IMG/VR virus record: IMGVR_UViG_3300037466_003648
Span: 64,001-128,000 of that record
From: a virus
Lineage: Duplodnaviria > Caudoviricetes
Direction: 5' to 3' (one strand)
DNA: 64,000 bases
Below the pieces are notes generated by a model. It was given only the letters and a program-made list of their open reading frames with translations, was not told where the DNA came from and did no database searches. Below are positions 6,234 to 23,791 of the stretch, piece after piece; the first letter of the stretch is position 1; the number at the start of each line of letters is the position of its first letter. Made by a program: the position numbers and the translations under genes.

Positions 6234-7160
6234 ATGGCTGAAGAGTTGAAGCTGCCCACGAACCTGCCGAAGGACATCGCGGAGTTCATGTCCTCGCAGA
6301 AGTACGCGAACGGCATGTGCATCCGCAACGTCAACAACTTGGCAGCGACCATCGCCAACAACGCCGCGATCACCGACGAGGTCTTCGCGGACATCCTCTC
6401 GAAGACCAACAAGACCTCGATGGAGACCCTGCCCGACATCTACGCGGTGCGCAACGAGATCAACGCGCGCTACGGCGATGGCAAGGGTGCTGCGCCTGCC
6501 CCCGCTGCCGCGGCGCCGACCCCGGCCCCCACCCCGGAGCCCGAGGCCGCTCCGGCTCCCACCCCCGAGCCCGCGGCTGCTCCGGCGCCGTTGCTCGAAG
6601 GCTTCGGCGCGCCTCCCACTTCGACCCCGACTCCCACGCCGGAGCCCGAGGTCGCTCCGGCTGCCGCTCCCGCGCCCAAGAAGCTGTCCGCTGCCGGTAA
6701 CAATCCGGTCGTGAGCAGCGCTGCTGCCGCGCCCCCGGTGGACGACATCGCGGCGGCGTTTGCCGCGGCGCCGACCGCGGTCACGGCCCAGCTGGAGACG
6801 GCGGTGGACGAGATCATGGACGAGCTGCCCGAGCCCCCGGCGGCGGAGGAAGAAGGTCCGGTGATCGACACGGAAGCGGAGACGGTCACTTCGGCACCCA
6901 CGCCGAAGCCCGAGACGCCTGCCCCGTCGGCTACCACGACCGAGGAAGCTCCCAAGCCGATCAAGGCTGGTGGTCGGGGTGCCAAGGTTGTCGCGGCCGG
7001 TCCCGAGAACGTGGTCAAGCAGCTGCTCGACAAGATCGACGAGCGCGACAAGCGGATCGAAGAGCTGGAGAAGGCGCTCACCGAGGCCAGCGCCAGCTCG
7101 ATGAAGCTGTCGGCTTCCATCGCCAAGCGCCTGGAGGCGGTGGGCGTCTCCGTCGAGTAG
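6234..7160 (+). CDS. Pro/Ala/Glu-rich low-complexity protein with C-terminal coiled coil
   Basis: AAGGAG SD; PTPEPE/APA repeats; C-terminal heptads. Confidence 0.75.
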   Translation: MAEELKLPTNLPKDIAEFMSSQKYANGMCIRNVNNLAATIANNAAITDEVFADILSKTNKTSMETLPDIYAVRNEINARYGDGKGAAPAPAAAAPTPAPTPEPEAAPAPTPEPAAAPAPLLEGFGAPPTSTPTPTPEPEVAPAAAPAPKKLSAAGNNPVVSSAAAAPPVDDIAAAFAAAPTAVTAQLETAVDEIMDELPEPPAAEEEGPVIDTEAETVTSAPTPKPETPAPSATTTEEAPKPIKAGGRGAKVVAAGPENVVKQLLDKIDERDKRIEELEKALTEASASSMKLSASIAKRLEAVGVSVE

Positions 7161-12392: not shown

Positions 12393-14111
12393 ATGCCCCC
12401 GACCAAGTCCCTCGATTGCTACGACCACTACCAGGAGAGCCTGTGCGGACTGCTGTCGCGGTTCCCGTTCTTCTACGCGTTCACGAACCAGTCGCCCTAC
12501 ACGGAGTCCCGGCAGGTTCCCATCGCGGAGATGTCTTTCGACGAGACCTCCAACAACATGAAGCTCGTTCTCAACCCGGACGAGTTCCCGCGCTACAACC
12601 TCAAGGACCAGATGTTCCACCTGGGTAAGCAGACGATCCACCAGATCCGTCTGCACCCGATCAGCCCCTTCGCCAAGCACGATCTCTGGCCCCTGGCCGC
12701 CAACATGGATGCGGTCAGCACGATGCTGGCCATGCAAGGACCAGACGGCAAGCCCTTCTTCACCATGCCCGAGGACCCCGATGACCCCGGCCATGGTGTC
12801 TACGTCACCCTGGATGGCGTGGCACGTCAGATCGAAGCGATGTGGGCGGCCAAGGGACAGCTCAAGCAGATCACCGCGCCCGAGCCCGAGCTGGGTGCGC
12901 TCGACTACTTCAACTGGCTGCTGGAGAACGTCCCCGCGGAGGCCAAGGAACCGGGCAAGGACAGCCAACCCAACCCGGAGGGCAAGCCCCAGAAGCAGAA
13001 GAACGACAATCCCGAGCCCGACGACGAGACCGAGCCCGAGCAGGAGCCCGAGGAGGAAGACGACGAGTCCGACCAGCCCGACAAGGGCGAGGGTGAAGAC
13101 GGCGACGGCGAATCCGACGACGACAGCCAAGGTGGCGGTGAAGAAGACAGCGACGACGAGGGCGACAGCGGGGAAGGCAAGGACGACCCCAAGGAAGACC
13201 CCAACGGCGAGGACGGCGACGGCAACGAAGACGATCCCGACACCGACAGCTCCGGTGACGACGGCGACGGCGAAGGTCAGGACGGCAAGTCTGGTGGCGC
13301 GCCACAAAACAAACCCGGCAAGGGTGGCGGTAGTCCCCGCGAGCTGATGCAGGAACTGCTGGACAAGTGCCAGCAGGACTGGCCTGACATGAACCCCGAT
13401 GAAAAGGAGATCATGAAGCAGGTCATCGCCGACCAGGTCGTGCAGGCGATGGCACAAGCCAACCCACCCGGCTCGTTGTCCGGCTCGTGTGCCGAGCTGA
13501 TCGAGAGCCTGAAGGACAAGGAAAGCTGGGAGCGTCACCTCAACAAGTTCACGGGTATGTCGGGTGGCCTCGATGGCCGCACCACGATGGCCCGTCGCAA
13601 CAAGTACGGTTCTTTCCCGCGCTACGTCTGGCGTCCCACCAAGAAGATCCTCATCATGATCGACACCTCCGGGTCGATGGATTCGCGCTGGATTGCTCGC
13701 GCCATTGGCGCCTGCGACAAGATCGCGAAGCACGCCGACGTGGACGTGATGTGGATCGATTGCGAGGTCCACGAGATCATCTCGTTCGCGGAAGCCAAGC
13801 GTCGCTCCAAGAAGCCGCGCGAGGACGGTCGCACTGGTTACGAGGCCAAGGGTCGGGGTGGTACCAGCATGCGTGCTGGCTTCCGTCACGTCCGCGATCA
13901 CAAGCTCAAGTACGACGCCCGCCTGGTCTTCAGCGATCTGGAGCTGGGCGATGCGAAATGGGGCGACAACTTCGGCTTCCCGCCCAAGACGGAGCAAGCT
14001 GGAATCCGTACCCTCTGGATCGGCGTCAAGGGTGATGCCAAGTCCCACCCCGTCCCGCGTGAAGCGGGTCCTGCCATCTACATCCCCGAGAGCGACCTGC
14101 TCGCTGCCTAA
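12393..14111 (+). CDS. VWA-domain protein (DUF2201-like) with acidic linker
   Basis: MIDAS IDTSGSM, GRGGT, LVFSD; long D/E/G-rich linker. Confidence 0.85.
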   Translation: MPPTKSLDCYDHYQESLCGLLSRFPFFYAFTNQSPYTESRQVPIAEMSFDETSNNMKLVLNPDEFPRYNLKDQMFHLGKQTIHQIRLHPISPFAKHDLWPLAANMDAVSTMLAMQGPDGKPFFTMPEDPDDPGHGVYVTLDGVARQIEAMWAAKGQLKQITAPEPELGALDYFNWLLENVPAEAKEPGKDSQPNPEGKPQKQKNDNPEPDDETEPEQEPEEEDDESDQPDKGEGEDGDGESDDDSQGGGEEDSDDEGDSGEGKDDPKEDPNGEDGDGNEDDPDTDSSGDDGDGEGQDGKSGGAPQNKPGKGGGSPRELMQELLDKCQQDWPDMNPDEKEIMKQVIADQVVQAMAQANPPGSLSGSCAELIESLKDKESWERHLNKFTGMSGGLDGRTTMARRNKYGSFPRYVWRPTKKILIMIDTSGSMDSRWIARAIGACDKIAKHADVDVMWIDCEVHEIISFAEAKRRSKKPREDGRTGYEAKGRGGTSMRAGFRHVRDHKLKYDARLVFSDLELGDAKWGDNFGFPPKTEQAGIRTLWIGVKGDAKSHPVPREAGPAIYIPESDLLAA

Positions 14112-14123
14112 AGGAGAACCACC

Positions 14124-15455
14124 GTGTCCGACACCACCATCGACCAGGTCGTCGATCAGCAGATGGCCGAGCACGCCATCCCCGCCCCGTCCCAGGCACC
14201 CGTTTACCGGGCGCTGAGTCAGACGGAGGTAGCCGAGAAGCGTTTGGAGCGTGTCCTCGCCACCGTCGAACGTGCCATGAAGTACTTCCCCGAGAACCCG
14301 TACATGCGGGCGGGCTTGTACTGCCACGCGGCGACGTTGGAGGGGCGCGACAACCCCAAGCTGTCGCCACGTATCATCACCCCGATGATCGTGGGCAAGG
14401 CAGGCTACGGCAAGACGTCCGTGCTTCGTCAGCTGGCGCGCGACACCGGCATCGGCTACCGCGAGATCCAGCTGGGCGGCATCACCGACATCGCCGAGGT
14501 CTTCGGTCTCGTCGAGAAGATCGTCATGGCGCCTGGTGAGCGGCCCAAGACCGTGCTGGCGCTGCCCGAGTGGTGGCCCGACCCGGACACCAACCCGCAG
14601 GAAGCGGAAGGCATCATCGTCTTCGACGACGCCACCCGCGCGCTGCCGCACATCCTGCAGGCCATCATGCAGTTCGTCATCAACGGCGAGTACAACGGCC
14701 TGCGCCTGCCCGAGGGCTGGAGCTGCCAGGTGACCGCCAACCCCGCGGACGGCGAGTACAACGTGGCAGAGCTGGACCCCGCGCAGTCCTCGCGCATGCT
14801 CGTGATGGGCTACAACCGCGCGCCGGAGACCTTCCACCACCAGTGCGAGGTGCAGGAAGTCGACGAAGACATGAAGGCTTACTGGGCTTCGCACCCGGAA
14901 GAGCTGGAGGTCGCGCCGGTCGAGGTTCCGCGCCCCGACAACAACGACCGTACCAAGATGATCTGGAACCGCATCTTCACCTACATGAAGCACGACCTCA
15001 TCGTGCTCAAGATGGTGGGCAACACGATGTTCGGTTCCGCCTGGGTGACGTCCTTCCTGGCGTCGCTCAAGAAGGATCAGCCCATCGACCCGGTGTCGAT
15101 CCTGTACAACTGGGATGGCGTGAAGGAACGGATGCAGAAGTACGTCGACGCTCGTCGCACGGACCTTGTTTCCGCCACCGTCGTTCGCCTGGTGACCTGG
15201 GTCAACACGCGCGAGCTGAAGGACTTGGAAGACGAGTGCTTCTCGAACCTCGCGCACCTGGGTGCGATGCTCCCCACCAGCGACGCGCACAACCTCATCG
15301 AGCGTCTGTGCGGTAACGGTGACCGCGGCGTCCAGATCTCGATGCGGATCAAGATGCGCACCGATGGTACGCCGCGTACCGAGGAGCACATCCAGGCGTT
15401 CGGCAAGAAGATGCGCGAGGTCATCTTGAGCATCAAGACCAAACTCGGCATGTAA
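14124..15455 (+). CDS. MoxR-like AAA+ ATPase
   Basis: Walker A GKAGYGKT, Walker B IIVFDD, TANP, LDPAQSSR; adjacent to the VWA gene. Confidence 0.85.
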   Translation: MSDTTIDQVVDQQMAEHAIPAPSQAPVYRALSQTEVAEKRLERVLATVERAMKYFPENPYMRAGLYCHAATLEGRDNPKLSPRIITPMIVGKAGYGKTSVLRQLARDTGIGYREIQLGGITDIAEVFGLVEKIVMAPGERPKTVLALPEWWPDPDTNPQEAEGIIVFDDATRALPHILQAIMQFVINGEYNGLRLPEGWSCQVTANPADGEYNVAELDPAQSSRMLVMGYNRAPETFHHQCEVQEVDEDMKAYWASHPEELEVAPVEVPRPDNNDRTKMIWNRIFTYMKHDLIVLKMVGNTMFGSAWVTSFLASLKKDQPIDPVSILYNWDGVKERMQKYVDARRTDLVSATVVRLVTWVNTRELKDLEDECFSNLAHLGAMLPTSDAHNLIERLCGNGDRGVQISMRIKMRTDGTPRTEEHIQAFGKKMREVILSIKTKLGM

Positions 15456-18546: not shown

Positions 18547-19215
18547 ATGAACATCCAAGAGTACCAGCTTGCCGCCGAGAAGACCTCGCCCGCCTATGGG
18601 TTGGTGGCGACGCCCTTGTCGCGTGAAGTTGACGGTGTCATGGTCCTGCACTACGGCATCGTTCCTCGGGACCAGGGTGCGAGCCGCGCTGCCTGGCGTC
18701 TGGCGAACGGCATTGCCGGGCTGGGCTCCGAGTCCTGCGAGCTGGTTGCCTTGACCCTCGACTGGGACAACCAGTTCCCGGACCTGTCGACGATCACCGC
18801 GGCCGACGAGGAAGAGCTGGTCAACCTGGTCAAGAAGGAGTTGGGGGACATCGCCTGGTACATCGCGGAGTCCGCGAGCGCCATGGGCTTCAACCTCGGC
18901 GGCATCACGAACTGGTCGAACGTCCTCGTGGACCACTGTGACTGGGGTCTCAACGCCCTGCAGGTCGCCAAGTACGCGGGTGGGGCGGCCGACTACTTCA
19001 AGAAGCTGGCGTGGCACGACAAGACCATCGACTGGGCCACGGTCGAGAGCCACTTCGCCTGTGCGCTGGGGGCCATCGCCATCCTCGCGAAGACGCTGGG
19101 CTTCACGATCGAGGACGTCCTCGACGCCAACATCGCGAAGTTGTCCGTCCGCTACGAGAAGGGCTTCTCCGGCACCACTTCGGAAGCGCGAGTCGATCTC
19201 GCCGCGGGGGCTTGA
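18547..19215 (+). CDS. MazG-like NTP pyrophosphohydrolase
   Basis: GLGSESCE, KKELGDIAWY, LDANIAKLSVRY. Confidence 0.8.
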   Translation: MNIQEYQLAAEKTSPAYGLVATPLSREVDGVMVLHYGIVPRDQGASRAAWRLANGIAGLGSESCELVALTLDWDNQFPDLSTITAADEEELVNLVKKELGDIAWYIAESASAMGFNLGGITNWSNVLVDHCDWGLNALQVAKYAGGAADYFKKLAWHDKTIDWATVESHFACALGAIAILAKTLGFTIEDVLDANIAKLSVRYEKGFSGTTSEARVDLAAGA

Positions 19216-19241
19216 CAACCAAGGGCACTTCCGCTTAGGAT
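19212..19241 (+). promoter_or_regulatory. sigma70-like promoter P1 of the RNA island
   Basis: TTGACA 19212-19217, 18 nt, TAGGAT 19236-19241. Confidence 0.65.
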
Positions 19242-19403: not shown

Positions 19404-19686
19404 AGGATCATCTTGGCTCTGGTGGACTGTGGGGACAGGGAGACCAACCGAGATGAAGTCGAAGGGGCTTTATACGCCAGTTCTGCTTCCAGCGTAGGTA
19501 GCGCGTTACCTGCCGTGAACCTCCCCCTGCCTCACTCCGCTGTCGCCTCCGGGTCGATGGCTCTCCTGTGTTGTCTTAGTAAGACACCATTGGATCGGCA
19601 CGAGTGAACTAGGGGTAGGGGGACACGGTTGTTTTGGAAGTCTCAGCTAACATTACCGCCAGTTTGCGGGCGCGCGAAGAAAGTGC

Positions 19687-19957: not shown

Positions 19958-20030
19958 GGCGGAGTGGGCCAGCGGCTACGCCGGGAGTCTCATAAGCTCC
20001 AGATCGAGGGTTCGAGTCCCTCCTCCGCCC
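19958..20030 (+). tRNA. tRNA-Met/Ile2 (CAT), elongator type
   Basis: GGCGGAG/CTCCGCC acceptor, GGAGT-ctCATaa-GCTCC, TTCGAGT loop. Confidence 0.9.
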
Positions 20031-20061
20031 CCTAATCGTACCTTGACAACCTAACACACTA

Positions 20062-20153
20062 GGGCAGATGGTCGAGAGGCCGATGGCACCTGTTTCGAAA
20101 ACAGGAGGCCGGTGTAACAAGCCGGTCCGGGGGTTCGAATCCCTCTCTGCCCG
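20062..20153 (+). tRNA. tRNA-Ser(CGA)
   Basis: cloverleaf with long variable arm, G73. Confidence 0.92.
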
Positions 20154-20161
20154 CTTAACTT

Positions 20162-20247
20162 GGGTGGTTGGCAGAGAGGCCGATCGCGCGACTTTGCTAA
20201 AGTCGTGACCTCTATGGGGTCCGTGGGTTCGACTCCCACACCACCCG
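20162..20247 (+). tRNA. tRNA-Ser(GCT)
   Basis: cloverleaf with long variable arm, G73. Confidence 0.92.
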
Positions 20248-20250
20248 CCT

Positions 20251-20326
20251 TGGTCTGTAGCTCAACTAGCAGAGTGCTGGATTCTGACTCCAGAGGTTGC
20301 GGGTGCGAGTCCCGTCAGACCTGCCA
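20251..20326 (+). tRNA. tRNA-Gln(CTG)
   Basis: cloverleaf, encoded CCA, T-loop TGCGAGT. Confidence 0.88.
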
Positions 20327-20331
20327 TCAAT

Positions 20332-20404
20332 GGTCCTATCGTTCAGAGGCCAAGGACGCCGCATTGTCAATGCGGTAACACGGGTTCGAATCCCGTTAGG
20401 ACCG
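20332..20404 (+). tRNA. tRNA-Asp(GTC)
   Basis: cloverleaf parsed by hand. Confidence 0.92.
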
Positions 20405-20408
20405 CCTC

Positions 20409-20467
20409 GGGCATCGCCTACCCAGACCGTGGTGACGCGGCGTAAGTAGGAGCAACGGTGTCCACCA
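20409..20467 (+). ncRNA. armless Ala-identity (G3:U70, A73, CCA) minihelix-like RNA
   Basis: GGGCATCG/CGGTGTCC stem followed by ACCA; inner CCTAC/GTAGG stem; no D, T or anticodon arm. Confidence 0.55.
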
Positions 20468-20471
20468 ATAT

Positions 20472-20544
20472 GCGCGTGGAGCTGGGTTGGTTCAGCGCCG
20501 CCTTGCCAAGGCGGAGTCCACGGGTTCGATCCCCGTTACGCGCT
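20472..20544 (+). tRNA. tRNA-Gly(GCC)
   Basis: cloverleaf, U73. Confidence 0.92.
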
Positions 20545-20549
20545 CTCAT

Positions 20550-20621
20550 TGCTACGTAGCACAGCGGTAGTGCGGCGCACTGTTAATGCGAAGGTCGCTG
20601 GTTCGATCCCAGCCGTAGCAG
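20550..20621 (+). tRNA. tRNA-Asn(GTT)
   Basis: cloverleaf, G73. Confidence 0.92.
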
Positions 20622-20626
20622 CCTAT

Positions 20627-20698
20627 GCCCCAGTAGCTCAATGGCAGAGCGTCTGCCTTTGGAGCAGATGGTTGTCCGTTCAAGTCGGACCTGGGGTT
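20627..20698 (+). tRNA. tRNA-Gln(TTG)
   Basis: cloverleaf parsed by hand. Confidence 0.88.
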
Positions 20699-20709
20699 CT
20701 CAAGTTCCT

Positions 20710-20782
20710 GGTGATGTAGCTCAACAGGTAGAGCAAGCTCTTGATAAGGGCTAGGTCGGAGGTTCGAGTCCTCCCGTCACCA
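20710..20782 (+). tRNA. tRNA-Ile(GAT)
   Basis: cloverleaf, A73. Confidence 0.92.
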
Positions 20783-20790
20783 CCTCAAGA

Positions 20791-20925
20791 CGGTCGCGGG
20801 TAGCCAAATGGGTTTAAAAGTACCCGGCGGACGAGCGGCTGGTGTTCCTACGGGACCCGGTCATCCGCCTCGACGGTCTGATCTAGCGGAAGGACGCTCC
20901 GCAAGTGGGTGAGAATCCCACACCC
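20791..20925 (+). ncRNA. structured RNA ending in D-arm/T-arm-like elements
   Basis: GGGTA/TACCC; GGCGGA/TCCGCC stem with cTACGg loop; GTGGG-TGAGAAT-CCCAC T-arm-like hairpin. Confidence 0.45.
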
Positions 20926-20928
20926 TTT

Positions 20929-20999
20929 GGGTCTATAGCTCAATGGCAGAGCTGCCGACTCTTAATCGGTAGATCAGAGTTCGACTCTCTGTGGACCCA
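20929..20999 (+). tRNA. tRNA-Lys(CTT)
   Basis: cloverleaf parsed by hand. Confidence 0.92.
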
Positions 21000-21003
21000 C
21001 TCC

Positions 21004-21075
21004 GCCGGTGTGGCTCAATGGTACAGCAGTTGATTTGTAATCAACCACCTCTCGGTTCAAGTCCGGGTACCGGCA
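21004..21075 (+). tRNA. tRNA-Thr(TGT)
   Basis: cloverleaf parsed by hand. Confidence 0.92.
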
Positions 21076-21088
21076 TCGCACAGTTCTC

Positions 21089-21161
21089 GCTGGTGTAGCT
21101 CAGTTGGTAGAGCGGCTGCTTCGTAAGCAGCGGGTCACGAGTTCGATTCTTGTCACCAGCA
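21089..21161 (+). tRNA. tRNA-Thr(CGT)
   Basis: cloverleaf parsed by hand. Confidence 0.93.
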
Positions 21162-21166
21162 CCTAC

Positions 21167-21238
21167 GGTCGTCTGGCGCAACGGTGGCGCGGCTCCTTTA
21201 CACGGAGAGGGTTCAGGGTTCGAGTCCCTGGATGACCA
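21167..21238 (+). tRNA. tRNA-Val(TAC)
   Basis: cloverleaf parsed by hand. Confidence 0.92.
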
Positions 21239-21242
21239 CTAA

Positions 21243-21314
21243 CGGAATGTACGCAAGGGGTATGCGGTCTGCTTTGGGAGCAGGAAGTCGGGGGTTCAAA
21301 TCCCTCCATTCCGA
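21243..21314 (+). tRNA. tRNA-Pro(TGG)
   Basis: cloverleaf, C1:G72, A73. Confidence 0.92.
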
Positions 21315-21319
21315 CCTTT

Positions 21320-21401
21320 GGGGGTATAAGGGCTGTCGATTCGGTGAAAGCCCCATGCGGGAACGCCGAAGACCTGGGTTCAATTCCCAGTACCTCCACC
21401 A
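21320..21401 (+). ncRNA. tmRNA-like RNA reduced to the tRNA-like domain (no tag reading frame)
   Basis: GGGGGTA/TACCTCC with G3:U70, stemless D-loop ending TCGA, helix TTCGGTG/CGCCGAA, GAC linker, CTGGG-TTCAATT-CCCAG, ACCA. Confidence 0.8.
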
Positions 21402-21404
21402 ACG

Positions 21405-21541
21405 ACAGGGGCAACAAGGTGACCTGACCTTCCCCTACGCACCGCTCAAGGCCGTGTGGTTACAGGTGACGCTCGGGAGAGGACACCCGCTGATGGCTTG
21501 CCTCGCGGACACCGGGTGACAGTCGGGAATAGACCGGCACC
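21405..21541 (+). ncRNA. unassigned structured spacer RNA
   Basis: nested AGGGG/CCCCT and AAGGT/ACCTT; 3' GTCGG-GAATAGA-CCGGC hairpin. Confidence 0.3.
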
Positions 21542-21547
21542 TTTCAC

Positions 21548-21619
21548 GCCCGTTCAGCTCGTCGGTCGAGCATCTCCTTGACATGGAGAAGGCGGCTGGT
21601 TCAACTCCAGCAACGGGCT
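21548..21619 (+). tRNA. tRNA-Val(GAC)
   Basis: cloverleaf; U73 is atypical. Confidence 0.88.
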
Positions 21620-21625
21620 CTACAC

Positions 21626-21701
21626 GCCGTGACAGTCTGACTGGACAGATCTCTGGCCTTCATCCAGAGGGAAGCGGGTTCGAGTCCCGCACGCGGCACC
21701 A
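21626..21701 (+). tRNA. tRNA-Glu(TTC), atypical (C33)
   Basis: TCTGG-ccTTCat-CCAGA, encoded CCA, one acceptor mismatch. Confidence 0.75.
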
Positions 21702-21713
21702 TCAACAAATCAT

Positions 21714-21788
21714 GCCCCGGCAGACTGCTCGGCAGGGTCGCCAGGTTCTCAACCTGGAGGTAGGTGGGTTCGAATCCCCCGCGGGGTG
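21714..21788 (+). tRNA. tRNA-Glu(CTC)
   Basis: CCAGG-ttCTCaa-CCTGG; mismatches in the acceptor and T stems. Confidence 0.78.
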
Positions 21789-21795
21789 CCTTAGT

Positions 21796-21922
21796 CCTAC
21801 GTTAGCTTCAAGCCGTATCGAGAGGTGCGGACACCGCCTGGGTGACCAGGATAGTCGGTGGGTTAGAGCGACCCAGGATTCTGTGCCTGGGGAGGTTGTC
21901 GGTTCGAGTCCGGGGCGTAGGA
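21796..21922 (+). ncRNA. tRNA-like RNA with a 57-nt D-loop and 8-nt anticodon loop
   Basis: CCTACGT/GCGTAGG acceptor, TA, D-stem GCTT/GAGC, CCCAGG/CCTGGG stem, TTCGAGT loop. Confidence 0.7.
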
Positions 21923-21929
21923 TACTAAC

Positions 21930-21996
21930 GGGAGATGGCAGATCCTTCCGATAGGCTGCAGGGCGGGCAACCGCCGTAAGTGCAAAACTGCCACCC
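21930..21996 (+). ncRNA. small structured spacer RNA
   Basis: TGGCAG/CTGCCA closing stem; GGCGG-GCAA-CCGCC GNRA hairpin. Confidence 0.3.
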
Positions 21997-22002
21997 TTCA
22001 AT

Positions 22003-22075
22003 GCGGTAGTAGCTCAGTTGGCAGAGCGCGTGCCTTCCAAGCATGATGTCGCAGGTTCGAAGCCTGTCTACCGCA
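22003..22075 (+). tRNA. tRNA-Gly(TCC)
   Basis: cloverleaf parsed by hand. Confidence 0.92.
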
Positions 22076-22104
22076 CCTGGTCGTAGCAAGAGAAGGAGAT
22101 CGCC

Positions 22105-22266
22105 ATGGCACATTACAAGCGGAAGAAGCAGAAGGAACGGGTTCGTCGGACCAGCGGCTACGACACGGAGAAGGTCCGAGCCTCTTACCACGGATGGCAC
22201 GCCTTGCTGCCTGCCATCCGTCTGCAGATGATCAAGGTCAAGGAAGAGCTGCGCGACGCAGCGTAA
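22105..22266 (+). CDS. small basic protein (53 aa) inside the tRNA array
   Basis: AAGGAG SD; MAHYKRKKQKERVRR... Confidence 0.6.
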   Translation: MAHYKRKKQKERVRRTSGYDTEKVRASYHGWHALLPAIRLQMIKVKEELRDAA

Positions 22267-22271
22267 GTTAT

Positions 22272-22411
22272 GGCCGGGTAGCTCAAGAGTAGAGCGCGAG
22301 CCTGATAAGCTCGTCTTCGTTGCGTAGTGGACACTGATCAACCACGGTAGCAACGAAGCGGTTGGAGGTCGCTCCTTCAACTGATGCCGGTGACGACTCC
22401 GGCCCTGGCCG
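22272..22411 (+). ncRNA. tRNA-like RNA (GAT anticodon) with a 72-nt two-hairpin variable region
   Basis: GGCCGGG/CCTGGCC acceptor, normal D arm, CGAGC-ctGATaa-GCTCG, GCCGG-TGACGACT-CCGGC, G73. Confidence 0.72.
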
Positions 22412-22426
22412 CCCTTCACAACATCT

Positions 22427-22499
22427 GGGCCTGTAGCTCCAATGGTAGAGCAGCTCCTTTGCAAGGAAAGGGTTGGCGGTTCGAGTCCGCCCAGGTCCA
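22427..22499 (+). tRNA. tRNA-Ala(TGC)
   Basis: G3:U70, A73; weak anticodon stem. Confidence 0.85.
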
Positions 22500-22501
22500 C
22501 T

Positions 22502-22610
22502 GGTTCTCACGACGTCCCGTGAACCTTGTTCGAACTGTTGCAACAGTTCGAACAAGGGTAGATGACAGGGATCAAAGCGCTGAAAGGTAAGCCGCGTCGT
22601 GAGAACCGCC
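22502..22610 (+). ncRNA. structured RNA with a 13-bp terminal stem and 34-bp perfect palindrome
   Basis: 22502-22514 pairs with 22595-22607; palindrome at 22524-22557. Confidence 0.5.
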
Positions 22611-22613
22611 CTT

Positions 22614-22686
22614 GGTCGGGTAGCTCCAACGGTAGAGCAGGCGCCTGAAAAGTGCCGTGTTGTCGGTTCGAGTCCGACCCCGACCA
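22614..22686 (+). tRNA. tRNA-Phe(GAA)
   Basis: cloverleaf parsed by hand. Confidence 0.92.
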
Positions 22687-22703
22687 CTCTTTTGATCCAG
22701 GGG

Positions 22704-22733
22704 TTGACAGATCCCATCTATGTGTGTTAGGGT
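22704..22733 (+). promoter_or_regulatory. internal promoter of the tRNA array
   Basis: TTGACA 22704-22709, 18 nt, TG-n-TAGGGT 22728-22733. Confidence 0.7.
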
Positions 22734-22867
22734 TGTCCAACTATGAACGCCGTGATCGCCAACTTGCTGTTGCTAGCCCTGCCGGTTGCAGGGTATCGAC
22801 GCTGGCGACATTCTTCTTGCGGCGGTCGACTTACCCTGCATCTGGCGTAACCTCTTCACTCCTTTCT

Positions 22868-22950
22868 CGGGACGTGGCGAAATGGCAGATGCGCCTGGCT
22901 CAGAACCAGGTGGGCGAAAGCCCGTGGGAGTTCGACTCTCCCCGTCCCGA
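22868..22950 (+). tRNA. tRNA-Leu(CAG)
   Basis: cloverleaf with variable arm, A73. Confidence 0.92.
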
Positions 22951-22954
22951 CTCT

Positions 22955-23037
22955 GCGGATGTGGCGTAATGGCAGATGCGCACGCCTGAGTAGCGTGTGA
23001 GCGTAAGCTCGTGTGAGTTCGAGTCTCACCGTCCGCA
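22955..23037 (+). tRNA. tRNA-Leu(GAG)
   Basis: cloverleaf with variable arm. Confidence 0.92.
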
Positions 23038-23043
23038 CTACAA

Positions 23044-23126
23044 GTCGGGATGATGAAATGGCAGCCTTGGTGGTCTCAAAAACCGCTGTCCGTAAGGACG
23101 TGGGGGTTCGACTCCCCCTCCCGGCA
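23044..23126 (+). tRNA. tRNA-Leu(CAA)
   Basis: cloverleaf with variable arm. Confidence 0.88.
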
Positions 23127-23149
23127 CTCTTCCAGTACCTTGACAATCT

Positions 23150-23224
23150 GTGCCCGCAGCTCGATGGACGAGCACTCCCCTCCGAAGGGAGCGGTTGCGC
23201 GTTCGAGTCGCGCCGGGCACGCCA
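23150..23224 (+). tRNA. tRNA-Arg(CCG)
   Basis: cloverleaf, encoded CCA. Confidence 0.92.
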
Positions 23225-23225
23225 T

Positions 23226-23298
23226 GTGCGTGTAGTTCAAACGGAAGAACGTCGGCCTCCTAAGCTGACGGTTGCTGGTTCGAGTCCAGCCGCGCACT
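23226..23298 (+). tRNA. tRNA-Arg(CCT)
   Basis: cloverleaf parsed by hand. Confidence 0.9.
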
Positions 23299-23302
23299 CT
23301 AA

Positions 23303-23375
23303 GCCCGCATAGCTCAATTGGACAGAGCACTGGTCTACGAAGCCGGGGACGTAGGTTCGACTCCTACTGTGGGTG
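23303..23375 (+). tRNA. tRNA-Arg(ACG)
   Basis: cloverleaf parsed by hand. Confidence 0.9.
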
Positions 23376-23379
23376 CTGT

Positions 23380-23451
23380 GGTGACTGTAGGCTAACGGTA
23401 AGCCGCCTGATTGTGGATCAGGTGATGCGGGTTCGATCCCCGTCAGTCACA
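23380..23451 (+). tRNA. tRNA-His(GTG)
   Basis: cloverleaf with encoded G-1; A73 rather than the usual bacterial C73. Confidence 0.9.
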
Positions 23452-23456
23452 CCTAT

Positions 23457-23537
23457 GCCAGTATGGGTGAGTAGCAATACCGGCTGCCTGTAAAGCAGCT
23501 CCCTCTGGGTTCCCTGGTGCAAGTCCAGGTGCTGGCA
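23457..23537 (+). tRNA. tRNA-Tyr(GTA)
   Basis: cloverleaf with variable arm; T-loop TGCAAGT. Confidence 0.88.
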
Positions 23538-23543
23538 CTCCAT

Positions 23544-23614
23544 CTACCGGTAGCCAAGTAGTAAGGTAGCGGTCTGCAAAACCGCCAGCGTGGGTGCGAT
23601 TCCCACCCGGTAGT
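23544..23614 (+). tRNA. tRNA-Cys(GCA)
   Basis: cloverleaf, U73; T-loop TGCGATT. Confidence 0.88.
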
Positions 23615-23618
23615 CTCT

Positions 23619-23690
23619 GCGTCGTAAAGATTACGGTAGTCGGCTGGTCTCCAAAACCAGCAGCGGTGGGTTCGACTCCCCCACGATGCG
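23619..23690 (+). tRNA. tRNA-Trp(CCA)
   Basis: cloverleaf, G73. Confidence 0.88.
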
Positions 23691-23697
23691 CTCTCTT

Positions 23698-23781
23698 GGT
23701 TGGTAGGGTTCAGTGGTGAGCACCACCGTCGGAAGCGGTGGCCGGGTGTCACAGCCTTCGGTTCGACTCCGATGCCAACCG
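23698..23781 (+). tRNA. tRNA-Ser(GGA), 8/4 architecture
   Basis: 8-bp acceptor GGTTGGTA/TGCCAACC, 4-bp T stem TCGG/CCGA, variable arm, G73. Confidence 0.75.
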
Positions 23782-23791
23782 CCTCATCCCC

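What the first reader, a model, noticed from the sequence alone, without database searches (positions are those of the whole stretch)
21320..21401. Mini-tmRNA: intact tRNA-like domain with the mRNA-like domain absent
Seen: 82 nt with every tmRNA TLD hallmark (G3:U70 acceptor, stemless D-loop ending TCGA, helix 2a TTCGGTG/CGCCGAA, 3-nt GAC linker, T arm, ACCA). Helix 2a is closed by just 17 nt (AAAGCCCCATGCGGGAA) instead of ~270 nt of pseudoknots and tag ORF, and the gene is not circularly permuted. Known: this domain binds SmpB and is alanylated; tag-less tmRNAs are described from some protist mitochondria. Inference: an SmpB sponge or dominant-negative inhibitor of trans-translation, or a rescue RNA that adds Ala without a degradation tag. 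Weak side note: loop AAAGCCCC is complementary to GGGGCTTT at 19464-19471 in the short-ORF leader, so a template supplied in trans is possible, but 8 bp may be chance.
Basis: partly seen in the sequence, partly recalled or inferred. Interest (0 to 1): 0.9.

Follow-up and report, generated by a model that had tools for sequence, protein, structure and literature searches.

The report
Phage tag-less mini-tmRNA gene
A 205-kb soil phage carries, inside its tRNA gene array, a real 82-base gene for only the alanine-accepting tRNA-like end of the bacterial ribosome-rescue RNA (tmRNA); this type is already known from mycobacteriophage DS6A, is common in phages, and probably interferes with the host's tagging of unfinished proteins.

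Summary
Window 21320-21401 (+) has a 7-bp acceptor stem with G3:U70, A73 and an encoded CCA. It also has a stemless D-loop, a 7-bp helix 2a, a GAC linker and a T arm. Rfam's tmRNA model aligns to it end to end with 310 of its 374 positions deleted (E about 1e-15, 34.7-43.2 bits, below the cut-off of 47). The 17-nt "loop" is a small hairpin flanked by adenines, also present in phages DS6A and pSt2308 and in many uncultured phages. Independent contigs from two other soil samples span it without change, so it is not an assembly deletion.

It is not new in kind. The tmRNA literature lists DS6A as "TLD only" (TLD = tRNA-like domain) and says such an RNA inhibits E. coli tmRNA. This scan has also reported the class on other DNA (61 notes in at least 55 genomes).

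In a sample chosen without constraining the acceptor stem, G3:U70 and A73 are invariant (83 of 83) while neighbouring pairs covary. This suggests that charging with alanine matters, not only SmpB binding. The phage has no SmpB, release factor/ArfB, Pth or CCA-adding enzyme.

Most likely it is a charged, SmpB-dependent competitor of host tmRNA that prevents tagging. The proposed trans-template 8-mer is chance. I rate it a new member of a known kind, of moderate interest.

The parts
21320..21401 (+). Whole mini-tmRNA gene (tRNA-like domain only), 79 nt to the discriminator plus an encoded CCA
   Evidence: RF00023 aligns end to end, E 1.2e-12 to 5e-17; element-by-element parse
21320..21326 (+). 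Acceptor stem, 5' strand (GGGGGTA); G3 is at 21322
   Evidence: 7 of 7 pairs with 21391-21397; G3:U70
21327..21339 (+). D-loop analogue without a stem (GG...TCGA)
   Evidence: Matches the Rfam consensus GGaUUCGA with a 2-nt insertion; 11-14 nt long in nearly all family members
21340..21346 (+). Helix 2a, 5' strand (TTCGGTG)
   Evidence: 7 pairs with 21364-21370. Across the family the helix averages 6.6 bp against 2.8 bp in shuffles, with 5-6 pair types at each of the first seven positions
21347..21363 (+). Cap of helix 2a: 5' AAAG, a 3-bp hairpin (21351-21353 paired with 21359-21361, loop CAUGC), then 3' AA
   Evidence: Predicted minimum-energy fold. The same motif occurs in pSt2308 and DS6A. 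90 of 93 long caps in the family fold as a hairpin, and the 5' flank is A-rich
21364..21370 (+). Helix 2a, 3' strand (CGCCGAA)
21371..21373 (+). GAC linker (variable-region analogue)
   Evidence: GAC in 66 of 105 family members and CAC in 15; the Rfam consensus has GGAC
21374..21390 (+). T arm: CTGGG, loop TTCAATT, CCCAG
   Evidence: alignment. Identical to the T arm of the Streptomyces phage pSt2308 mini
21391..21401 (+). Acceptor stem 3' strand (TACCTCC, U70 at 21395), discriminator A73 (21398), encoded CCA (21399-21401)
   Evidence: Only 3 of the 32 tRNAs in the array encode CCA
19958..23783 (+). Array of 32 tRNA genes covering all 20 amino acids, in which the mini-tmRNA sits. It starts 3 nt after the ARAGORN end of tRNA-Pro (21243-21316) and lies 146 nt before tRNA-Val (21548-21620)
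   Evidence: ARAGORN and Rfam; spacing table

Best explanation
This is a functional phage gene for a tmRNA reduced to its tRNA-like domain (a TLD-only, tag-less mini-tmRNA).

Inferred mechanism, step by step:
- It is transcribed with the tRNA array and cut out by the host's tRNA-processing enzymes.
- Host alanyl-tRNA synthetase charges it through G3:U70 and A73.
- Host SmpB binds it, since the phage encodes no SmpB.
- EF-Tu delivers it to stalled ribosomes.
- There it competes with the host's full-length tmRNA for SmpB, EF-Tu and ribosomes stalled on broken mRNAs.
- Because it has no resume codon or tag reading frame, the nascent chain can receive at most one alanine instead of the degradation tag.
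- The net effect during infection is to block or bypass ssrA tagging and what follows from it (proteolysis of the product, and possibly decay of the non-stop mRNA).

Shown here: the anatomy, that the DNA sequence is real and not an assembly artefact, membership of a widespread and covarying phage family, and invariant alanine identity in that family.

Inferred: transcription and processing, charging, SmpB binding, ribosome entry and the effect on tagging.
For: Identity:
- End-to-end RF00023 alignment, with every TLD element present.
- The same architecture and cap motif occur in Mycobacterium phage DS6A (JN698994 28478-28560, 43.2 bits) and in Streptomyces phage pSt2308 (PV588686 33356-33436, 61 bits, above the cut-off).

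Family:
Of these, 119 have an acceptor stem, giving 102 unique sequences, most of them 78-80 nt long like this one.
- Positions not fixed by that pattern (acceptor pairs 5-7, T-stem pairs 1-4) are 99-100% paired, with 4-7 pair types each.
- Helix 2a is at least 5 bp in 86% of members, against 9% of shuffles.

Selection for charging:
- With a pattern that leaves the acceptor stem free, G1-C72, G3:U70 and A73 are each 83 of 83, while pairs 4-7 vary.

Dependence on the host:
- The 205-kb genome has no SmpB, RF-1/ArfB, Pth or CCA-adding enzyme, and no second tmRNA.

Placement:
- It sits like a tRNA, 3 nt after tRNA-Pro.

Literature:
- DS6A is listed as 'TLD only'. [quoted passage not shown] 2009).
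- PMC11915505 states that the DS6A form inhibits endogenous tmRNA in E. coli.
- The TLD is the SmpB-binding region, and Ala-TLD with SmpB mimics an aminoacyl-tRNA in the A site (PMC3022190).

Not an artefact:
- Two independent contigs span it unchanged.
Against: - There is no expression data. No RNA run holds the stretch, and the host is unknown.
- The Rfam score is below the gathering cut-off.
- Folding energy is not better than shuffles.
- According to PMC4131195, inhibition in E. coli did not need chargeability, so the tested mechanism may be simple SmpB titration. I could not read Mao et al. 2009 itself.
- How a ribosome carrying peptidyl-Ala-mini-tmRNA and no message would be released is unknown. 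The phage encodes no release factor or hydrolase.
- The window phage has no close relatives, so conservation at the same genomic position could not be checked.
Confidence: 0.6

Rival explanations
1. Productive tag-less rescue. The charged mini-tmRNA accepts the nascent chain and the ribosome is then released by host ArfB, ArfA/RF2 or drop-off plus Pth. Ribosomes stalled on cleaved phage mRNAs, for example after attack by host defence nucleases, are recycled and the phage proteins escape the degradation tag. This differs from the best explanation in claiming a gain of rescue capacity, not only interference.
For: - Alanine identity and A73 are invariant in the unbiased sample.
- CCA is encoded in this copy.
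- The copy sits in a complete tRNA set covering 20 amino acids, which suggests a phage investing in translation capacity.
- CDS-less tmRNAs persist in jakobid mitochondria and some plastids together with SmpB, and are thought still to help with incomplete mRNAs (PMC11915505).
- In other phages the gene often lies among head genes that are translated heavily late in infection.
Against: - No release factor, ArfB or Pth is encoded by the phage.
- No experiment shows release after transfer to a TLD-only RNA.
- The one tested member is reported as an inhibitor (PMC11915505).
Confidence: 0.2
2. Pure SmpB sponge. The RNA only sequesters SmpB, and perhaps RNase R or EF-Tu. It need not be charged and never needs to enter the ribosome.
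For: PMC4131195 reports, citing Mao et al. 2009, that a similar molecule inhibited tmRNA whether or not it was chargeable. The D-loop and GAC elements of the TLD, the region SmpB binds (PMC3022190), are conserved.
Against: If charging were irrelevant, G3:U70 and A73 should drift like acceptor pairs 4-7. They are 83 of 83 in a sample where the acceptor stem was not part of the search pattern.
Confidence: 0.12
3. Decayed remnant of a full-length phage tmRNA, or an assembly artefact, with no function.
For: Some large phages carry full-length tmRNAs in their tRNA arrays, for example Bxz1 at 73.9 bits. This copy scores below the Rfam cut-off.
Against: - All helices are intact.
- It has the same size and architecture as more than 100 diverse phage copies, with compensatory changes.
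- Independent contigs are identical.
Confidence: 0.03
4. Two-piece system in which a tag template is supplied in trans, through pairing of the cap (AAAGCCCC) with GGGGCTTT at 19464-19471, or from the downstream spacer.
For: An 8-nt complement exists at 19464-19471.
Against: - The 8-mer count equals chance: 2 found including the site itself, 1.55 expected, and 44 of 100 shuffles do as well.
- The AAAG-CC part belongs to a cap motif shared by unrelated phages.
- The spacer 21402-21547 has no tag-like frame and no unusual fold.
- The permuted-tmRNA model matches only the 3' part, weakly.
Confidence: 0.02
5. Integration-site mimic (attP copy of the 3' end of host ssrA), or an alanyl donor for a process outside the ribosome.
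For: ssrA is a common integration site for phages and islands (PMC11915505, PMC9004378).
Against: - The genome has no tyrosine integrase.
- The element contains both halves of the TLD, joined by its own helix, which an attP does not need.
- It sits in a tRNA array of a phage with direct terminal repeats.
Confidence: 0.03

Closest known systems
'TLD only' (CDS-less) tmRNA of Mycobacterium phage DS6A (tmRNA Website tmID 11587, Phage__Mycobacterium.9; Hudson, Lau & Williams 2014, PMC4131195; PMC11915505; Mao et al. 2009)
   Same: - Phage-encoded and about 80 nt, with a G3:U70 acceptor, stemless D-loop, helix 2a, small capping hairpin, CAC or GAC linker and T arm.
- No tag frame and no pseudoknots.
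- Nearly the same cap motif: GAAAACCGCACGCGGUAC in DS6A against GAAAGCCCCAUGCGGGAAC here.
- The same Rfam score, 43.2 bits.
   Different: - DS6A is a 60-kb temperate siphovirus in which the gene stands alone between gp33 and a DNA polymerase III gene. Here it is one member of a 32-tRNA array in a 205-kb phage.
- CCA is encoded here but not in DS6A.
- The helix 2a and acceptor sequences differ.
Unannotated mini-tmRNA of Streptomyces phage pSt2308 (PV588686.1 33356-33436)
   Same: It lies inside a tRNA array, has an identical T arm and a very similar cap, and is 82% identical over 55 nt.
   Different: The phages are unrelated at protein level where tested. The pSt2308 copy does not encode CCA, and it scores above the Rfam cut-off (61 bits).
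Full-length one-piece tmRNA (Rfam RF00023), including phage copies such as Bxz1
   Same: The tRNA-like domain is the same. In Bxz1 the gene also lies in a phage tRNA array.
   Different: Here 310 of 374 model positions are missing: helices 2b-2d, four pseudoknots, the resume codon and the tag reading frame.
CDS-less tmRNAs of jakobid mitochondria and Mallomonadaceae plastids (Jacob et al. 2004; PMC11915505)
   Same: tmRNAs reduced to the tRNA-like part, with no tag frame, that depend on an SmpB encoded elsewhere.
   Different: Those are organellar products of reductive evolution and replace the cell's only tmRNA. The phage RNA acts alongside, and probably against, an intact host tmRNA.

Membership tests
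tmRNA tRNA-like domain (TLD) | 7-bp acceptor stem with G3:U70 and discriminator A73 (alanine identity) | tested here: met
   GGGGGTA/TACCTCC pairs 7 of 7, with G3:U70, A73 and CCA. These features are invariant in 83 of 83 unbiased family members
tmRNA tRNA-like domain (TLD) | T arm with a GGGTTCRAWTCCC-type stem-loop, and a D-loop analogue (GG..UCGA) without a D stem | tested here: met
   Alignment to RF00023 with high posterior probability over these parts
tmRNA tRNA-like domain (TLD) | Helix 2a in place of the anticodon stem, followed by a (G)GAC linker before the T arm | tested here: met
   TTCGGTG/CGCCGAA followed by GAC. The helix shows many pair types across the family and is longer than in shuffles
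tmRNA tRNA-like domain (TLD) | Binds SmpB and is charged by AlaRS | not testable with these tools
   Inferred only from the conserved identity elements. The phage has no SmpB of its own
Canonical tmRNA (Rfam RF00023, full function) | Score at or above the family gathering score (47 bits) | tested here: not met
   34.7 bits and 43.2 bits. The relative in pSt2308 reaches 61 bits
Canonical tmRNA (Rfam RF00023, full function) | mRNA-like domain with a resume codon and tag reading frame, and pseudoknots PK1-PK4 | tested here: not met
   Only 17 nt lie between the strands of helix 2a. There is no tag-like frame downstream and no other tmRNA in the genome
Phage TLD-only mini-tmRNA (DS6A type) | Phage-encoded, roughly 60-90 nt, complete TLD, helix 2a closed by a short cap, standard (non-permuted) order | tested here: met
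   At 79 nt to the discriminator, this copy falls on the modal length (78-80 nt)
Two-piece / permuted tmRNA (RF04321 and clan members) | The acceptor 3' half precedes the 5' half and a coding piece is present | tested here: not met
   RF04321 gives only a 16.3-bit partial match to the 3' part. The element is in the standard order
Ordinary tRNA-Ala | D stem and an anticodon arm with a 7-nt loop | tested here: not met
   ARAGORN tRNAs but not this element. In the Rfam clan competition tmRNA beats tRNA at this site. A normal tRNA-Ala(UGC) lies at 22427-22500

The most novel reading that the evidence does not exclude
The mini-tmRNA is a phage counter-measure that performs tag-less ribosome rescue. 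It is charged with alanine and takes over nascent chains on ribosomes stalled by host nuclease-based defences or by heavy late translation. The conserved A-rich bulge plus the short CCG-CAYG-CGG hairpin that caps helix 2a would then be a functional module, for example helping to resolve or release the peptidyl-RNA, and not a mere closing loop.
Probability: 0.17. Interest if true: 0.8.

Novelty: new member of a known kind. Interest (0 to 1): 0.45.

Why it matters
Trans-translation is the main bacterial ribosome-rescue and protein quality-control pathway and is a drug target. A small phage RNA that hijacks or blocks it would be a natural, genetically compact inhibitor. It would also be a new layer of phage-host conflict over translation.

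This copy adds little on its own, because the type was described for DS6A and this scan has met it repeatedly. The comparative data gathered here do sharpen the question:
- The family is large and mostly unannotated. ARAGORN called 3 of 119 copies.
- Its alanine identity is invariant, which suggests charging is needed.
- Many members share a capping hairpin that has no assigned role.
- The gene lies either in tRNA arrays, as here, or in head-gene modules.

These points make direct tests straightforward.

Tried and rejected
- **Trans-template idea.** The 8-mer complement is at chance level. The spacer 21402-21547 has no tag-like frame and no unusual fold (z = +0.33).
- **Assembly deletion.** Rejected, because independent contigs span the element unchanged.
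- **Expression.** No RNA holder was listed for the stretch. This says nothing either way.
- **Relatives of the phage.**
  - megablast and blastn against GenBank phages found only tRNA-sized matches.
  - PolA is at most 27% identical to cultured phages.
  - The DUF2201 protein has no phage match and no similarity to the pSt2308 CobT-like protein.
  - The phosphoesterase gave only distant loci.
  - The 208-kb contig behind L027, which carries the most similar mini (82%), shares no proteins with the window in the 12.9 kb held; an earlier tblastx attempt returned nothing.
  - So the host stays unknown and conservation at the same position could not be tested.
- **MAFFT alignment A1.** It misaligned the 5' acceptor strand, so I did not build a covariance model from it. 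I used an element-by-element parse instead.
- **Bacterial-genome scan.** Most hits were false: the 3' ends of true Streptomyces tmRNAs, with 5 of 7 acceptor pairs. Only 22 hits look like real minis.
- **Mao et al. 2009.** The paper is not held, so its result is quoted second-hand.
- **Origin of the cap.** The idea that the cap derives from the conserved GCAUG box of tmRNA helix 2d (consensus) remains a weak resemblance. It would need more than one deletion.
- **Partner protein.** The neighbour-gene search found no dedicated partner, only head genes.

Full report
**What is there**

The window is bases 64001-128000 of a 205,180-bp IMG/VR virus record with direct terminal repeats and about 62% G+C. 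On the + strand, 19958-23783 holds 32 tRNA genes covering all 20 amino acids. The finding lies between tRNA-Pro (21243-21316) and tRNA-Val (21548-21620).

- acceptor stem GGGGGTA/TACCTCC, 7 of 7 pairs, with G3:U70
- a 13-nt D-loop analogue without a stem, ending in TCGA
- helix 2a, TTCGGTG/CGCCGAA
- a 17-nt cap
- a GAC linker
- T arm CTGGG-TTCAATT-CCCAG
- discriminator A, then CCA

Rfam's tmRNA model RF00023 aligns to it from model position 1 to 374, with 310 positions deleted and 17 inserted. Scores and E-values:
- 34.7 bits, E 1.2e-12, in a 261-nt search
- 43.2 bits, E 5e-17, in the whole genome
- 43.2 bits, E 5e-15, in the 4.7-kb array

All are below the gathering score of 47, which is expected when the whole middle of the model is absent. 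ARAGORN does not call it. The permuted-tmRNA model matches only the 3' part, weakly. No other tmRNA exists in the genome. Folding energy alone is not significant (z = -1.37).

**Is it real DNA?**

Nine soil or rhizosphere metagenome runs hold at least half of the stretch's sampled words. Contigs from two runs that are not marked as possible sources cover 20900-21584 and 21187-21588 with no differences and no gaps. So the short form is not an assembly deletion. No RNA run was available, so expression is unknown.

**Precedent**

Hudson, Lau and Williams 2014 (PMC4131195) list "Mycobacterium phage DS6A (TLD only)". They state that its sequence is little more than the tRNA-like domain (TLD). They add that a similar molecule, chargeable or not, strongly inhibited tmRNA, perhaps by titrating SmpB (citing Mao et al. 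2009). The 2025 database paper (PMC11915505) repeats that the DS6A form inhibits endogenous tmRNA in E. coli. It also reports roughly 65-bp CDS-less plastid tmRNAs. I could not read Mao et al. itself.

This scan has also noted the same class before on other DNA: 61 notes in at least 55 genomes, all pointing to DS6A.

**Relatives**

RF00023 finds the DS6A element at JN698994 28478-28560 (43.2 bits). It also finds an unannotated one in Streptomyces phage pSt2308, at PV588686 33356-33436 (61 bits, above the cut-off), inside that phage's tRNA array. All three share the cap:

| Phage | Cap sequence |
|---|---|
| this window | GAAAGCCCCAUGCGGGAAC |
| pSt2308 | GAAAGCCGCACGCGGAAC |
| DS6A | GAAAACCGCACGCGGUAC |

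So the "17-nt loop" is really an A-rich 5' flank, a 3-bp hairpin and one or two 3' adenines.

Of these, 119 have an acceptor stem, giving 102 unique sequences with a modal length of 78-80 nt. This copy is 79 nt to the discriminator.

Positions that the pattern does not fix are 99-100% paired, with 4-7 pair types each. These are acceptor pairs 5-7 and T-stem pairs 1-4. Helix 2a averages 6.6 bp against 2.8 bp in shuffles, and is at least 5 bp in 86% of members against 9% of shuffles. Of 93 caps of 11 nt or more, 90 fold as a hairpin, and CACG and CAUG are the commonest loops. Twelve short forms close helix 2a with a short loop of 3-6 nt, most often UUCG.

Because that pattern fixed G3 and U70, I ran a second pattern anchored on the D-loop, linker and T loop only. 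Of 85 unique hits, 83 have an acceptor stem. G1-C72, G3:U70 and A73 are each 83 of 83, while pairs 4-7 vary freely. Alanine identity is therefore under selection in this family.

**Context**

The phage encodes none of the following:
- SmpB
- RF-1/ArfB domain
- Pth
- CCA-adding enzyme
- RtcB
- tyrosine integrase

The mini-tmRNA starts 3 nt after the ARAGORN end of tRNA-Pro, like the other tightly packed members of the array. It encodes CCA, whereas only 3 of the 32 tRNAs do. This fits release by the tRNA-processing machinery.

Across the family the tRNA-array setting is the minority. Of 119 copies, 99 have no same-strand tRNA within 1 kb. The recurrent neighbours are prohead protease, portal, capsid and terminase. 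No dedicated partner protein emerged. ARAGORN called only 3 of the 119 copies.

The genes around the array in this window are replication and nucleotide-metabolism genes: PolA, SNF2 and UvrD helicases, ribonucleotide reductase, MazG, a phosphoesterase and a C1 peptidase. The phage has no close cultured or uncultured relative, so its host is unknown.

**How it most likely works**

Established knowledge (reviewed in PMC3022190):
- SmpB binds the TLD.
- Ala-TLD together with SmpB mimics an aminoacyl-tRNA in the empty A site.
- The tag comes only from the mRNA-like domain.

An RNA with an intact TLD that can be charged, but no template, should compete with host tmRNA for SmpB, EF-Tu and stalled ribosomes. 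It could donate at most one alanine. The published inhibition by a similar molecule fits this.

The invariant G3:U70 and A73 found here suggest that in nature the RNA must be charged. That favours entry into the ribosome over mere titration of SmpB. Whether the ribosome is then productively released (tag-less rescue) or stays blocked cannot be decided. The phage brings no release factor.

I put about 0.6 on "charged, SmpB-dependent competitor that prevents tagging". Of the rest, about 0.2 goes to productive tag-less rescue and about 0.12 to a pure sponge.

**Rejected ideas**

- The trans-template note fails. GGGGCTTT occurs twice in the window, counting the element itself, against 1.55 expected. 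The AAAGCC part belongs to the shared cap. The downstream spacer has no tag-like frame and no special fold.
- An attP role is unlikely without an integrase.
- A decayed remnant is excluded by the family-wide covariation.

**A weak observation**

The cap's GCAYGCGGA resembles the conserved GCAUGUAGa box on the 3' strand of tmRNA helix 2d (consensus). It also resembles GCACACGGAG in Streptomyces tmRNAs. It may be a relic of helix 2, but more than one deletion would be needed, so I do not rely on it.

**Verdict**

This is a new member of a known, under-annotated kind. Interest is moderate (0.45). The open questions are what the RNA does on the ribosome and what the conserved cap is for.

Noticed in passing
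L167, L172, L187 (and L227, L233, L240, L241, L245, L249, L253): A nearly identical 84-nt (as extracted) TLD-only element (cap ...AAACCAACAAACGGAC...) recurs in genome contigs. The three with visible titles are cyanobacteria: a Pseudanabaenaceae strain, [Scytonema hofmanni] UTEX 2349 and Calothrix membranacea. Whether it lies in a prophage or is a chromosomal gene was not checked.
   Followed up: no
L139-L258 (genome-contig scan): Most hits of the structural pattern in bacterial genomes are false. They are the 3' ends of genuine Streptomyces tmRNAs, where an upstream GGGG...TCGA occurs by chance (5 of 7 acceptor pairs). Only 22 of 120 loci look like real minis, for example L158 (Sideroxyarcus MAG) and L194 (an Actinomycetes MAG).
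   Followed up: partly
L211:6146-6222 and 6308-6371: Two pattern matches about 90 nt apart on an 11-kb contig binned as 'Candidatus Iainarchaeum archaeon'; at least one passes the mini-tmRNA checks. Archaea have no tmRNA, so this is probably a mis-binned phage contig.
   Followed up: no
window 19958-23783: In all but one of the 32 tRNA genes the base after the ARAGORN 3' end is T (discriminator, then C or CC, then T). Only 3 tRNAs (ending at 20326, 21701 and 23224) encode a full CCA, although the phage has no CCA-adding enzyme.
   Followed up: partly
window 20785-20928, 21402-21547, 22078-22426, 22501-22613, 22688-22867: Spacers of 113-349 nt inside the tRNA array have no tRNA call and no Rfam match at E <= 0.01. 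The one I folded (21402-21547) is no more stable than shuffles. Another first-stage note (e1-5404287) proposes non-canonical RNAs here.
   Followed up: partly
window 19212-19241 (+): A sigma-70-like promoter match (TTGACA, 18-nt spacer, TAGGAT; 10 of 12) lies about 700 nt upstream of the first tRNA. It may drive the array.
   Followed up: no
window 23270-23328 (+): A weak YrlA (Y RNA-like) match of 27.7 bits, against a cut-off of 69, overlaps two adjacent tRNA-Arg genes. It is most likely a cross-hit to tRNA-like sequence.
   Followed up: no
window 12393-15455 (+): Adjacent genes for a VWA-like DUF2201 protein (with a long acidic insert) and an AAA_5 ATPase lie upstream of a C1 peptidase, a phosphoesterase and MazG. 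The DUF2201 protein has no tblastn match in GenBank phages.
   Followed up: partly
L017-L136 and L264-L310 (IMG/VR loci): In most other phages the mini-tmRNA stands alone next to head-morphogenesis genes (prohead protease S78, portal, major capsid, large terminase), not in a tRNA array. ARAGORN called only 3 of 119 copies.
   Followed up: partly
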